Origin: Trueperaceae bacterium
Lineage (GTDB): Bacteria; Deinococcota; Deinococci; Deinococcales; Trueperaceae
Direction: 5' to 3'
DNA length: 64,000 bases
NCBI GenBank assembly: GCA_965215565.1
Contig: CBDCDZ010000004.1
Coordinates: 2,528,001 to 2,592,000 of the forward strand
Shown here: positions 1,622-37,528 of the stretch, one piece after another
Layout of the letters: each line of letters starts with the position of its first letter
Position numbering within the stretch: the stretch's first letter is position 1
Notes under the pieces: generated by a model
The model's database searches: none
What the model was told of the DNA's origin: nothing
What the model saw: the letters and a program-made list of their open reading frames with translations, nothing else
Program-made: the position numbers and the translations under genes

Positions 1622-2125
1622 ATGAATAAAGTCGCAGTTATACTTATTATGCTCATGCTAAGTCTGGGTTTCGCTCAGGACACGGGAGGGATGAGCGATA
1701 TGGCGTCTGCCGAACTGTCCGCGACGACGGACAGCGGGACGCCCGAAGCTTACACCGAGGAACGCTGGCAGGAGGCGAGCGGAACGGCGTCTGCCTCGTC
1801 ACAGTCCGAGGGTGAATACACGGTGCGCTTGGAGGCGAGCGGCTTGGTCCCGGATGGGCTCTACACCACCTGGTACGTCATCCCCGGTACCCTGGGCACG
1901 TCCGCCGGGCAAGAAGTAGGTCCTGCGGGGGGTGTGCCCAACGAATTTCGCGCGGACGCCCAAGGAAGCGCCACCTTCGAATTCACGGTGCCCGCCGAGA
2001 ACGACTACCGAGACCTCGTCGTCGCCTACCACGCGGACGACATGACGCACGGCGAGATGCCGGGCGCGATGGGCGAGGTGACGTTTGCTCACCTGATGAC
2101 GGCTTTTCCTGCGCCGAGCAATTAG
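1622..2125 (+). CDS. Secreted hypothetical protein
   Basis: AAGGGG RBS, then MNKVAVILIMLMLSLGFAQ signal peptide; His/Met-containing C-terminus (YHADDMTHGEMPGAMG...HLM). Confidence 0.7.
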   Translation: MNKVAVILIMLMLSLGFAQDTGGMSDMASAELSATTDSGTPEAYTEERWQEASGTASASSQSEGEYTVRLEASGLVPDGLYTTWYVIPGTLGTSAGQEVGPAGGVPNEFRADAQGSATFEFTVPAENDYRDLVVAYHADDMTHGEMPGAMGEVTFAHLMTAFPAPSN

Positions 2126-2253
2126 ACTTTAACCTCAATAAGACCAAGTATGAGTGAGGCGGGTGAGCGCAGATATCGTCTCAGAACGTGCGTGCTAGAC
2201 ACCGCTTTGCATAGTGAGACTGGCTCAAACCAGATGAACTTAGTATAGAGTTG

Positions 2254-3192
2254 TCAAGCCCCCTTCCACCTCTGTGGGTGCTGCTGAGTGACTTGCAGCA
2301 TGAAACGAAAGAGTTCTCTTGCGAGATAGGTTTTGAGACTTCTTAGAGCAGCCCGGCGGGTCTTGCCTTGCTGCTGTTTCTTGTCGAGATAGGCTCTTGT
2401 CGGTTCGCTGTGGCGCAGTCTGACTTGGGCAATCATGTGAAAGGTGCGGTTGAGCCGACGGTTGCCGCCGATGTTGAGTTGCCTTCTCTTCTGACCACCA
2501 GAAGAGCGCTCGACAGGCGCACAACCTGAATACATGGCAAAGGCGTGTTGTGAACGAAAGCGTCGGATGTCACCTGCTTCAGCAAGTAGCGTGGCGGCGT
2601 GAACGACGCCGACGCCAAAGACCTCTAAGAGTTCAGGCATCAGTTCGTCAACGAGGGCTTTCATCGCCTGCTCGAGCGTCTTGAGTTGTTCTTTAAGCAC
2701 TGCAATAACGGCTTCGACGGCTTGGCGAGCCACCTCTAGCTCAAGGCTCGCTAAGCTCAGCTTGTGCGCTGTAAGCTGTTTAGCTAGCGCTTCTCGGGTG
2801 CGGGTCAGATGTTTGAGGTCTTCAACCGCTTGCCGAGGTGCAAACGTAGTCAGCTCAGGATTAGCCAAAGCAGCCCGAGCTACGTTTTCAGCGTCTACCT
2901 CATCACTCTTCTTGCGTCCTCTTTTGCTGCGGTACTGACTCGTCAGACTCGGACTAATGTCCACAACCTTATGGTCCTGCCCGAGCAACGCTTGACTCAA
3001 CCTCCGAGCAAAGGGGTTATTCGCCCCTTCAATAGCGCACCGCTGAACGTCATAGCGCTTTATCCAGTGCTCCAAAGTTGCCAAGCCCTCAGCCGTATTC
3101 GTAACGGTGCAGTGACCTAATACCTTGCCCTGTTTATCTAACGCTGCTGCGGTATGGCTCTGCGGATGTGGATCAACCCCTATAATGACCAT
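2254..3192 (-). CDS. IS110-family DEDD recombinase/transposase
   Basis: IIGVD, IEG and KSDEVDA RuvC-like DEDD residues; C-terminal GCAPVERSSG and GNRRL motifs; AAGGAGG RBS. Confidence 0.95.
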   Translation of the reverse strand: MVIIGVDPHPQSHTAAALDKQGKVLGHCTVTNTAEGLATLEHWIKRYDVQRCAIEGANNPFARRLSQALLGQDHKVVDISPSLTSQYRSKRGRKKSDEVDAENVARAALANPELTTFAPRQAVEDLKHLTRTREALAKQLTAHKLSLASLELEVARQAVEAVIAVLKEQLKTLEQAMKALVDELMPELLEVFGVGVVHAATLLAEAGDIRRFRSQHAFAMYSGCAPVERSSGGQKRRQLNIGGNRRLNRTFHMIAQVRLRHSEPTRAYLDKKQQQGKTRRAALRSLKTYLARELFRFMLQVTQQHPQRWKGA

Positions 3193-3199
3193 ACAACCT

Positions 3200-3350
3200 C
3201 CTTAGGTTGCTGCTCACGGTAGCTGCTTATCCGTCTATGAGGCTACTAAGCGTCTTAGTATCAGGCAAGCTCCGTGTAGCTTAGTGAGCGAGGTGTGCAG
3301 TTCATCTGTTAGCCCTAAAGCTGATACTTGCTGGGCATCACCTCGCTTCT
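3200..3350 (-). ncRNA. Putative IS110 bridge RNA (target-binding and donor-binding loops)
   Basis: GCGAGGTG/CACCTCGC stem encloses AGCAAGTATC and CAGATGA (target guides); the next domain holds ATACTAAG and ATAGACGGA (donor guides). RNA ends are approximate. Confidence 0.8.
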
Positions 3351-3413
3351 CTTAATATACGGATACCTGCTAGTAGAAGGCTCGCCCTTGAAAATAAGAT
3401 AACCTTGTGTAAC

Positions 3414-4060
3414 GTGACAAAAGCCATTATCTTTGACCTTGATCAAACGCTGATTGATAGAACGAAAACATTTCAACGTTTCCTCGAGGCACAGTATTTC
3501 CGTTTCCAGAATGACTTAAATGCCGTGTCTAGAGACCTCTTCATCTCGACAATTCAACATTGTGATAACAACGGGTATACACCGAAAAGAGAGGTTTATG
3601 CTCAGGCTTGTGCGGCGTGGGGCTCGAGCTTAGCGGCGAACTCCACGCTGACTTTGAAGAGGTCTACGGTCAAGAGCCCATCTTATTTGAAGGGGCTAAA
3701 GAGGTGCTTAGGGCGCTACAAGCACATTACAAGCTCGGTTTGATTACGAACGGACGAAGCCAAAGTCAAAACGCCAAAATCGATAACGCTGGCATCCGTG
3801 AGTTTTTCGGCTCGATCAAGATTTCAGAAGAAGAGGGCGTCAAAAAACCAAACCCTATCATTTTCGAGCGTTGTGTCAATCAGCTTGGCGTCACTTCAGA
3901 AGAAGCGGTCTATGTAGGTGACCATCCTGAGAAAGACATTATGGCGGCTCGAGCGGTAGGGCTTAAAGCGGTTTGGGTACGGAATGCTCACTACTCTAAA
4001 CCTAAAAGTGCCGATGGTGCTATCGGTCATCTTAGTGAACTTGTGGACCTCATAGTTTGA
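3414..4060 (+). pseudogene. HAD-superfamily hydrolase, frameshifted near 3610-3625
   Basis: Motif I (IIFDLDQTLID) lies in ORF 3405-3743; ITNG, KPNP and VGDHPEKDI lie in the overlapping ORF 3608-4060. Confidence 0.75.
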
Positions 4061-4090: not shown

Positions 4091-4966
4091 AGACCTCTTG
4101 CAAAAGTAGACATATAGCTGCAAAGTAAGGCTATGCGATACGAAGAGATTAGAGGACTAGCGCCAGAAGGGTTCAGACGTTTGACAGGCGTCAAGCCTGG
4201 TGTGTTCAAACAGATGCTCGACGTTCTAGGAGAAGCTGAACGGCAGAAGAAGAAGGCGGGACGCACAAGCAAACTCAGCTTGGAGGACAAACTGCTCTTA
4301 GCGCTGTCGTACTGGCGCGAATACAGGACGCAGTTTCATATTGCGGCGAGTTACGGACTGCACGAGTCCACAGCGAACCGGATCATCACACGGATTGAAG
4401 ACGTACTCATCGCTTCAGGCAAGTTCAGCTTACCTAAAAGGCGCGAGGTGGAAGAGATTGAGTGGACTGTCGTCTTGATTGATGTCACCGAGACGCCTAT
4501 TGAGAAGCCCAAAAAAAGGAGCGACGTTACTTTAGCGGAAAAAAGCAGCGCCACACGCTGAAGAGTCAAGTGCTGGTAGACGCAAGTGACACGAGGATTC
4601 TTTCAACAGCCCACGCCAAAGGTCCCAAGCACGACTACAAGCTGTTCAAAGAAACAGCCCCTAGGTGTAAACCTGAAGTCTGGTACGTCGCTGATAGCGG
4701 CTATCAAGGCTTAGCAACGCGTCATCCACAGACCTGCTTGCCCGTCAAAAAGCCTAAGGGCGGTGAGCTTAGTGATGAAGCCAAACAACACAACCGCGCT
4801 CTAGGACGCTTCCGCATCGCGGTAGAACATGTGATTCGTTCGCTCAAGATCTGGCGTATCCTCAAAGAAACTTACCGTAATAGGCGCAAGCGCTTCTCCT
4901 TACGCTTCAACCTCATCGCCGGGCTCATCAACGCCAACCTCGATTCATGACTTTTGCAAGAGGTCT
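4091..4966 (+). mobile_element. IS5-family (ISL2/IS702-like) insertion sequence, 876 bp
   Basis: Perfect 17-bp inverted repeats AGACCTCTTGCAAAAGT (4091-4107) and ACTTTTGCAAGAGGTCT (4950-4966); 3-bp AGG duplication at 4088-4090 and 4967-4969. Confidence 0.92.
4133..4950 (+). CDS. IS5-family DDE transposase in two frames joined by a -1 shift at the A7 run (4511-4517)
   Basis: HTH part (FRRLTG...KLSLEDKLLLALSYWREY), LIDVTETPIEKP, then the -1 frame reads YFSGKKQRHTLK...ADSGYQG...RIAVEHVI. Confidence 0.85.
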
Positions 4967-37374: not shown

Positions 37375-37528
37375 TAGCACTTCCAAAACATATTGAGATA
37401 GGGTGCCGCAGGTCTCAGCGAAGCTAGCGGGATTTCACCTCACAACGTGCGTGCTAATTACGAAGTTTTCACGCAGTGAAACAGTGTTTTCTACAGTGAG
37501 GGTGTTTCAGACCAGATAATACCTGCTA
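37375..37528 (-). repeat. 154-bp MITE/REP-like repeat, long form
   Basis: Differs from 43412-43565 at only 6 positions; TAGCA...TGCTA ends. Confidence 0.9.

What the first reader, a model, noticed from the sequence alone, without database searches (positions are those of the whole stretch)
3193..3363. IS110 bridge RNA with four guide segments readable from the DNA
Seen (minus strand): the empty target is AGCAGGTA-TC-ATCTGG and the circle junction (donor) is CTATACTAAGT-TC-CGTATAT. In the non-coding end, a GCGAGGTG/CACCTCGC stem encloses AGCAAGTATC (+3323-3332; 9/10 match to the target left arm including the core) and CAGATGA (+3302-3308; exact reverse complement of TCATCTG). The next domain holds ATACTAAG (+3254-3261; 8-nt match to the donor left arm, though it stops short of the core) and ATAGACGGA (+3230-3238; 8/9 reverse complement of TCCGTATAT). 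Established: this is the target-loop then donor-loop layout of IS621-type bridge RNAs. Inference: a compact 312-aa Deinococcota bridge recombinase with a TC core, potentially reprogrammable and distinct from characterised ones.
Basis: partly seen in the sequence, partly recalled or inferred. Interest (0 to 1): 0.92.

Follow-up and report, generated by a model that had tools for sequence, protein, structure and literature searches.

The report
Bridge RNA with displaced donor guide
The stretch in front of this jumping gene very probably encodes a guide ("bridge") RNA that spells out both its landing site and its own ends; this is a known kind of system, but one of its four guides sits two bases away from where the best-studied example has it, which would matter to anyone reprogramming this branch.

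Summary
All four matches are at the stated coordinates and are not chance (0 of 20,000 shuffles). The element is a 1,124-bp IS110 with seven near-identical copies, all in one arm of a 76-bp repeat that has 234 empty exact sites. Across 22 homologous ends the two-loop fold covaries, and the target guides track each element's own flanks (permutation 0/200,000; six held-out copies match 11 of 12 positions).

Corrections: the conserved right donor guide is 5 nt, not 9. The left donor guide pairs donor positions -1 to 6 in 15 of 16 homologues (all 16 match the ATAC-anchored 8-mer), against 1 to 8 in IS621. That offset also appears in 11 of 17 further elements, ISEc21 among them, so it marks a branch. 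ISEc21 (29% identical) is closer than IS621, and 312 aa is not unusually small. No RNA or activity data were available.

This scan has logged 454 IS110 bridge-RNA findings on other DNA; my look-ups returned none on this offset. Figures I could not see may show it. Verdict: real; a variant of a known kind.

The parts
2238..3361 (-). IS110-group element, 1,124 bp between the two TC cores; 7 full copies in the genome (6 identical, 1 with one substitution)
2254..3192 (-). 312-aa recombinase: DEDD_Tnp_IS110 + Transposase_20; D7, E55, D97, D100 invariant and S230 nearly invariant in 51 homologues
   Evidence: NF033542, 171 bits over a cut-off of 140
3362..3370 (-). left target plus core (positions 1-9), the left part of the host repeat arm
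2169..2237 (-). core, right target (2231-2237) and the rest of the interrupted 76-bp inverted-arm repeat
3288..3346 (-). target-binding domain: outer stem with a bulged A, internal loop and inner stem-loop (3312-3321)
3323..3331 (-). left target guide, 9 nt, 8/9 match, mismatch at position 4
3302..3308 (-). right target guide, 7/7
3300..3301 (-). target-loop handshake dinucleotide AC; complementary to donor positions 7 and 6, not to target 7 and 6
3212..3280 (-). donor-binding domain: outer stem, internal loop and inner stem-loop (3242-3251)
3254..3261 (-). left donor guide, 8/8 to donor positions -1 to 6; the two following bases do not match positions 7-8
3228..3229 (-). donor-loop handshake dinucleotide UA; complementary to target positions 7 and 6, not to donor 7 and 6
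3193..3210 (-). hairpin covering the Shine-Dalgarno sequence just before the start codon
   Evidence: (z -3.0)
2236..2246 (-). left donor arm in the right end (positions -1 to 7) plus core
3355..3361 (-). right donor arm, the first bases of the left end
2252..2257 (-). -35 box TTGACA of the predicted circle-junction promoter (overlaps the stop codon)
3354..3359 (-). -10 box TATATT, 18 nt from the -35 box once the ends are joined

Best explanation
This is the bridge RNA of a recently mobile IS110-group element from a branch that includes ISEc21-like and actinobacterial IS110s. Shown from sequence and comparison: the element ends, the TC core, the two-loop fold, four guides that change together with their DNA sites, two handshake dinucleotides, and a multicopy repeat as target. 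Inferred from IS621/ISEc21 work: (1) Joining the ends makes a circle and a promoter (TTGACA-18-TATATT). (2) A roughly 140-155-nt RNA starting near 3347 binds recombinase dimers through each loop. (3) The target loop reads 14 bp of the repeat arm (9 nt on the bottom strand, 7 on the top, one tolerated mismatch at position 4). (4) The donor loop reads the circle junction with 5 nt on the top strand and 8 nt on the bottom strand at positions -1 to 6, so the terminal ATA is read by RNA and bottom-strand positions 7-9 are left to protein. (5) After top-strand cleavage the handshake bases go from 0 to 4 Watson-Crick pairs, favouring insertion over excision. (6) A hairpin over the ribosome-binding site dampens recombinase translation (weakest step).
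For: Ends and copies. Chance test 0/20,000. Family fold: 20 pairs, 97.7% of cells paired, 16 pairs with two-sided changes, slid controls 25-49%. Left target guide vs own flank 5.65 of 7 against 2.83 for other clusters (n=20, 13 cluster representatives, 0/200,000 permutations); right target guide 3.94 of 5 against 1.49 (n=16, 12 representatives, 0/200,000); left donor guide 8/8 in 16 of 16 (2/200,000). Right donor position 10 covaries in 18 of 19 (717/100,000); donor-loop handshake base 1 pairs target position 7 in 19 of 19 (186/100,000); target-loop handshake base 1 pairs donor position 7 in 15 of 15; the locking (own-site) pair occurs in 0 of 19 and 0 of 15. Six held-out copies match 11 of 12 target positions each, against a non-cognate mean of 4.7. 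Same donor register in 11 of 17 further elements, including ISEc21. Promoter spacing of 18 nt in 10 of 14 junctions. Catalytic residues conserved.
Against: No expression or activity data. In free folding the guides are only about half unpaired, and a competing hairpin involves the left donor guide here (9.5 kcal/mol to open all loops). Homologues are related, so permutation counts overstate even with cluster representatives. Rows that fit less well: L039 right target guide 2/5; L031 and L034 left target guides fit only when slid by one base; L048 is ambiguous about its core; L038 and L044 right ends did not parse; 6 of 17 further elements gave no rule-based match; 6 of 12 held-out loci were not in the tally (4 gave no parse, L033 lacks its left end, L060 is degenerate and its right target guide does not match). 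The second handshake base is weak in the donor loop (5 of 19 Watson-Crick, 10 with wobble). The target-loop handshake test has little power because donor position 7 is nearly always T (permutation 33,489/200,000). The ribosome-site hairpin is predicted in 18 of 21 rows but most have z near 0.
Confidence: 0.9

Rival explanations
1. seekRNA mode: the working RNA is mainly the short target-loop piece, and the donor loop is secondary, used only for some steps (as reported for ISEc21 and, in part, CazIS110-1).
For: ISEc21, the closest tested element found, moved with a 58-74-nt target-matching RNA (PMC11187229, passages). Target-loop-only RNA was 90% of CazIS110-1 transcripts and supported left-junction transfer (10.1101/2025.10.25.684509). 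This genome has 4 left-junction-only remnants against 2 right-end-only ones.
Against: The donor loop covaries with the donor across all groups tested, so it is under selection. Full transposition needed the full RNA in CazIS110-1. The remnants show microhomology-like joins to repeat-internal sequence and may be plain deletions (seen by eye).
Confidence: 0.25
2. The left donor guide is really a 10-nt guide running from -1 to 8 with a tolerated mismatch at 7, an extension of the IS621 register and not a shift.
For: The last loop base is U in 15 of 22 rows and could pair opposite T8; both bases match in 4 of 16 rows (L035, L004, L045, L046).
Against: Position 7 matches in 5 of 16 and position 8 in 8 of 16, with no covariation. 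In this element neither matches. The equivalent target-loop base is also U in 18 of 22 rows, as are the linker bases U59 and U132 of IS621. U is kept in CC-core relatives L067, L069 and L072, though a wobble is possible there.
Confidence: 0.2
3. The matches are by-products of a conserved end sequence and protein-only recognition; no guide RNA is involved.
For: No RNA evidence could be obtained; donor ends are conserved within groups.
Against: Target flanks are host DNA, yet they track the guides in each lineage; compensatory stem changes; the family is experimentally RNA-guided (PMC11208160, PMC11187229).
Confidence: 0.03

Closest known systems
IS621 / ISCro4 (IS622) bridge RNA-recombinase (PMC11208160, PMC11208158, PMC13626964, 10.1101/2025.05.14.653916)
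   Same: RNA in the left end; target loop then donor loop; 3+9+1-nt left target strand with a bulged A in the outer stem; 14-bp target around a 2-nt duplicated core; handshake dinucleotides; junction promoter; DEDD plus serine; repeat as target; same TGTAT-type right donor arm.
   Different: Core is TC, not CT. The left donor guide pairs -1 to 6, not 1 to 8, and includes the ATA that flanks the guide-read arm in IS621. The right target guide is naturally 7 nt (IS621: 4). Handshake pairs are 0 before and 4 after exchange (IS621: 1 and 3). No 5' stem-loop is predicted. Protein similarity is distant (E 3e-16); IS621 G63 and N84, which read the core, align with N58 and S80 here (read from the alignment).
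ISEc21 seekRNA element (Siddiquee et al. 2024, PMC11187229)
   Same: Closest tested element found (29% over 348 columns). Upstream non-coding RNA; bottom-strand match 5' of top-strand match; same 13-nt donor-loop strand with an 8-nt guide ending one base before a donor TC.
   Different: 358 aa against 312 aa, in a separate, well-supported part of the tree. ISEc21 makes no target duplication and targets IS3-family genes; this element duplicates TC in all 7 copies and targets a non-coding repeat. The passages I read describe only ISEc21's target matches, not a donor loop.
ISPpu10 / ISPpu9, REP-targeting IS110s (10.64898/2026.03.19.712850; PMC12288879, search listing only)
   Same: All copies sit in a multicopy palindromic repeat; mismatches at left-target positions 1 and 4 are tolerated in ISPpu10, and these are the least-matched positions here (13 of 20 each).
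   Different: CT core; Pseudomonas REP. Whether the repeat's stem helps targeting here is untested.

Membership tests
IS110 family (IS110 group) | DEDD RuvC-like domain plus Tnp domain with catalytic serine | tested here: met
   PF01548 and PF02371; NF033542 over cut-off; D7, E55, D97, D100 invariant, S230 in at least 90% of 51 sequences
IS110 family (IS110 group) | Long left non-coding end, short right end, no long sub-terminal inverted repeats | tested here: met
   Left end 169 bp, right end 16 bp after the stop codon; only an ATAC/GTAT-sized repeat around the core
IS110 family (IS110 group) | Site-specific insertion around a short core | tested here: met
   7 of 7 full copies in the same site with TC on both sides; 234 empty exact 14-mers
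Bridge RNA | Two internal loops in a covarying fold | tested here: met
   the distal donor stem was not tested because of indels in the alignment
Bridge RNA | Target guides covary with each element's target | tested here: met
Bridge RNA | Donor guides covary with each element's ends | tested here: met
Bridge RNA | Handshake bases pair with the non-cognate DNA after exchange | tested here: met
   first base 19 of 19 and 15 of 15; second base weak in the donor loop
Bridge RNA | RNA is expressed and binds the recombinase | not testable with these tools
   No RNA run was available to test it; needs an experiment
Bridge RNA | Guide changes redirect recombination | not testable with these tools
   Only natural retargeting is seen (for example G063)
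Bridge RNA | Circular intermediate with a junction promoter | tested here: inconclusive
   Promoter boxes 18 nt apart in 10 of 14 predicted junctions; no circle was observed
IS621/ISCro4 subgroup | CT core | tested here: not met
   TC
IS621/ISCro4 subgroup | Left donor guide pairs donor positions 1-8 | tested here: not met
   The 8-nt slot matches positions 1-8 at 1 of 8 bases in all 16 rows, and the ATAC-anchored 8-mer at 8 of 8
IS1111 group | RNA in the right end and 7-17-bp sub-terminal inverted repeats | tested here: not met
   RNA is in the left end; the right end is 16 bp

The most novel reading that the evidence does not exclude
A broad IS110 branch (this Deinococcota clade, ISEc21-like and actinobacterial elements; TC or CC donor cores) uses a second, so far undescribed donor-recognition geometry. 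The left donor guide is slid two bases away from the core and reads the terminal ATA motif by RNA pairing, leaving the donor bottom strand at positions 7-9 without an RNA partner. This would suit top-strand-only (copy-out, direct-transfer) chemistry, could explain why ISEc21 needs no shared core, and would require different reprogramming rules from IS621. This element would also be a natural example of the engineered 'post-handshake, extended right guide' state.
Probability: 0.3. Interest if true: 0.65.

Novelty: new variant of a known kind. Interest (0 to 1): 0.45.

Why it matters
Bridge recombinases are being developed as editors almost entirely from IS621 and ISCro4, which need CT-type cores. 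This element offers a TC core, a recently active seven-copy system, a full 7-nt right target guide and four handshake pairs in its natural state. The comparative result has wider reach: IS621 design rules applied to the donor loop of this branch would place the guide two bases off, which could make good orthologues look inactive in screens. It also gives ISEc21 a donor loop that can be tested directly, which bears on the seekRNA-versus-bridge-RNA question. The basic biology (an IS110 guide RNA aimed at a genomic repeat) is known, and tens of thousands of bridge RNAs have been predicted, which caps the interest.

Tried and rejected
Rfam: no match up to E 1 in 2000-3600. The genome-contig scan with the single protein found nothing; the alignment found 3 loci there and 27 in metagenomes. 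The right-donor-guide and donor-handshake tests used wrong columns and were discarded; one search is the corrected run. The IS621 slot register for the left donor guide was rejected. Sequencing runs: no RNA holder listed, which says nothing about expression. Contigs of 4 runs (3 samples) listed no joint between the two element ends; contigs drop rare forms, so this says nothing about circles. No predicted structure of the protein was obtained, so fold-level comparison with IS621 is open. Source of the target repeat: one Y1 transposase-like hit in the genome, with no repeat arm printed within 6 kb, and no clear target duplication, so I cannot call it a REP or a MITE. The linear-locus promoter scan found one 9/12 site upstream, at chance level. 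A shared-word search in 21 distant loci was mostly uninformative: 4 gave no hit, and the donor match was printed for L006 only. Literature: searches returned no listing on this element or on a displaced left donor guide, and 'tc core' had 0 occurrences in the 11 papers. I could not see figures (Extended Data Fig. 10c of PMC11208160 with ISAar29; Fig. S12 of 10.64898/2026.10.21.760802), scanned PDFs, the cut parts of two supplement files, or bioRxiv supplements; any of them may show it. Scan look-ups by sequence, relatives and offset wording returned nothing.

Full report
OBSERVATION. The genome G000 holds 7 full copies of a 1,124-bp element; six are identical and one differs by one base. Every copy has TC at both ends, the same left target flank and the same first right-flank bases. 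This fixes the target, the donor junction and the core without using the guides. In 20,000 dinucleotide shuffles of the left end (terminal donor bases removed), single guide matches occurred 155-306 times, two or more together 19 times, and all four never. The ORF at 2254-3192 has both IS110 domains and passes the NCBIfam IS110 cut-off. Its only solved relatives are IS621 and ISCro4, at E about 1e-16 and 1e-14. D7, E55, D97 and D100 are invariant, and S230 nearly so, in 51 of the 120 listed homologues that I aligned.

TARGET. The site is the left arm of a dispersed repeat. The exact 14-mer occurs 234 times empty; the guide-literal version (without the position-4 mismatch) occurs twice; the donor junction does not occur. 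Of 347 near-exact left arms, 241 have a right arm, most often giving 76 bp with a 13-bp terminal stem. The 14-mer occurs in 16 of 61 family genomes searched, and the reversed control pattern in none. The right arm usually differs at target positions 4 and 14, which fits insertion into the left arm only (inference).

COMPARATIVE TEST. I aligned 22 left ends: the window plus 21 loci, at 39-92% protein identity. Left out were duplicates, own-genome copies, loci without a left end, loci under about 35% identity, L033 (cut) and L060 (broken gene). The family fold has two internal loops. Over 20 specified pairs, 97.7% of cells pair, 16 pairs show two-sided changes, and slid controls give 25-49%; the distal donor stem was not counted. 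Left target guide positions 1-7 match the element's own flank at 5.65 of 7, against 2.83 for other clusters (n=20). The right target guide matches at 3.94 of 5, against 1.49 (n=16). With one representative per cluster, 0 of 200,000 permutations reached either value. The rows are related, so these counts overstate.

A covariance model of the alignment found matches in 6 of 141 genomes of the order. Of 12 loci not used in the alignment, six parsed fully (three copies in G063, three on Deinococcus sp. QL22 plasmids). Each matched 11 of 12 target positions (non-cognate mean 4.7, maximum 7) and 47 of 48 left-donor positions in total. Four did not parse, one lacks its left end, and one (L060) is degenerate with a non-matching right target guide. 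Two of the six have scaffolds close to aligned rows.

The two bases after each right guide are handshake guides as defined for IS621 (PMC11208158, section 11 read). Here AC pairs donor positions 7 and 6, and UA pairs target positions 7 and 6. That is no pair before exchange and four after; IS621 has one and three (PMC13626964, Discussion read). In homologues the first base pairs the non-cognate position 7 in 19 of 19 (donor loop; 186/100,000 permutations) and 15 of 15 (target loop; little variation to test), and never the cognate one. The second base is weaker: 5 of 19 in the donor loop, and 9 of 15 plus 4 wobbles in the target loop (L048 left out for an ambiguous core). The conserved right donor guide covers positions 8-12 only. 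Joining the ends gives TTGACA and a -10-like box 18 nt apart in 10 of 14 junctions. A hairpin covers the ribosome-binding site.

THE DISPLACED GUIDE. In IS621 the 8-nt left donor guide ends two bases before the inner stem and pairs positions 1-8, and the ATA motif lies outside it (PMC11208158 sections 7 and 8; supplement rows; PMC11208160 passages). Here the 8-nt guide also ends two bases before the inner stem, but it matches the ATAC-anchored 8-mer perfectly in 16 of 16 rows (positions -1 to 6 in 15; -2 to 5 or -1 to 6 in L048, depending on its core). It matches positions 1-8 at only one base. The next two RNA bases match donor positions 7 and 8 in 5 and 8 of 16 rows, without covariation. A fixed rule applied to 17 further elements (three Deinococcus at about 49% identity, the rest about 29-34%) found the same arrangement in 11, with six different guide sequences and TC or CC after a one-base gap; ISEc21 is one of them. 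Of the six misses, by eye two have the 8-mer but failed the loop pattern, one has a single mismatch, and three show nothing. So 'stops short of the core' is a trait of the branch, not decay. ISEc21 is 29% identical to this protein and lies in a separate starred part of a 25-row midpoint-rooted tree that did not include IS621 (L043 dropped by the program).

MECHANISM. The most likely cycle is circle or copy-out formation, junction promoter, RNA-recombinase tetramer, top-strand cleavage beside the core, and handshake-driven exchange into the repeat arm. The sequence anatomy and covariation are shown; expression, binding, cleavage and circles are inferred from relatives. Against: free folding leaves the guides only about half open, and opening all loops costs 9.5 kcal/mol, so the active fold probably needs the protein (inference). 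Whether the unpaired donor positions 7-9 change bottom-strand chemistry is open. Top-strand-dominant transfer is reported for CazIS110-1 (10.1101/2025.10.25.684509, parts 1-3 of 5 read) and single-strand excision for IS621 itself (10.64898/2026.08.31.748434, abstract only), so the offset is not required for it.

COMPARISON AND NOVELTY. It works like a bridge RNA and meets every IS110-group and bridge-RNA feature I could test, except that the circle test was inconclusive. It fails two IS621-subgroup features (CT core, donor register). Repeat targeting is known (ISPpu10, 10.64898/2026.03.19.712850: abstract, passages and section 8 read). Small size is not special (PMC11187229 passages; 10.64898/2026.08.14.744561 passages). 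Diverse bridge RNAs have been predicted in bulk: 72 orthologues screened (10.1101/2025.05.14.653916, section 5) and 32,190 modelled (10.64898/2026.10.21.760802, passages). In the passages I read, ISEc21's long RNA is left without a role, and a review table lists only its target (PMC13604230, passages). The searches listed under Tried and rejected found no text on the offset, but unseen figures and supplements may show it; I put that at about even odds (judgement). This scan already holds 454 IS110 bridge-RNA findings. The host is inferred to be Deinococcota, probably Trueperaceae, from the closest named relatives.

VERDICT. Observation confirmed; interpretation partly supported; new variant of a known kind; interest 0.45.

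Noticed in passing
L087, L092, L095 (G063): A 75%-identical relative with 3 copies appears to target the same repeat family at the next TC, 3 bp further along, with both target guides slid to match: natural retargeting within one repeat.
   Followed up: partly
G000:C4 687469(+), 3341778(+), 269802(-), 160181(-), 695978(-), about 3452700-3453300(+): Four left-junction remnants (8-23 bases of element, then repeat-like sequence), one right-junction remnant keeping only the 11-nt donor arm, and one internally deleted copy. Deletion scars or aborted one-sided transfers; the matching loci in G001 and G002 did not settle it.
   Followed up: partly
G000 right junctions: 8 of 9 right junctions continue with GTTT after the 14-mer, against 86 of 234 empty sites. 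No RNA bases explain it; two pairs of copies share long right flanks, so there are fewer independent events.
   Followed up: partly
window 2169-2237 with 3364-3370; further arms near 37526, 38824, 43563, 45307, 46454, 57958: A 76-bp repeat family with 13-bp terminal inverted arms and modular inserts, over 200 copies, shared by 16 of 61 family genomes searched; its mobiliser was not found.
   Followed up: partly
L060 (G000:C4 about 420900-421990): A second IS110, 56% identical, with an in-frame stop codon and a degenerate target loop; the RNA model still scores it 60 bits.
   Followed up: partly
L074 (ISEc21): ISEc21 has a readable donor loop (8-nt guide, one-base gap, TC), and the donor TC is not shared with its target, which fits the reported lack of duplication.
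   Followed up: partly
L031, L034: The left target guide fits best (8/9) when slid one base toward the inner stem, so left guides can move within the loop.
   Followed up: partly
window 3193-3210: Hairpin over the Shine-Dalgarno sequence; the site is predicted paired in 18 of 21 rows, but most z-scores are near zero.
   Followed up: partly
L002 (G002): The 92%-identical relative has extra sequence just after its start codon, about 70 bases by eye.
   Followed up: no
window 3405-4060 (+): HAD-family hydrolase apparently split over two overlapping reading frames; only the second hits Pfam.
   Followed up: no
window 4133-4950 (+): DDE transposase in two ORFs (HTH_Tnp_4, then DDE_Tnp_4/DDE_Tnp_1), a second insertion sequence next door.
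   Followed up: no
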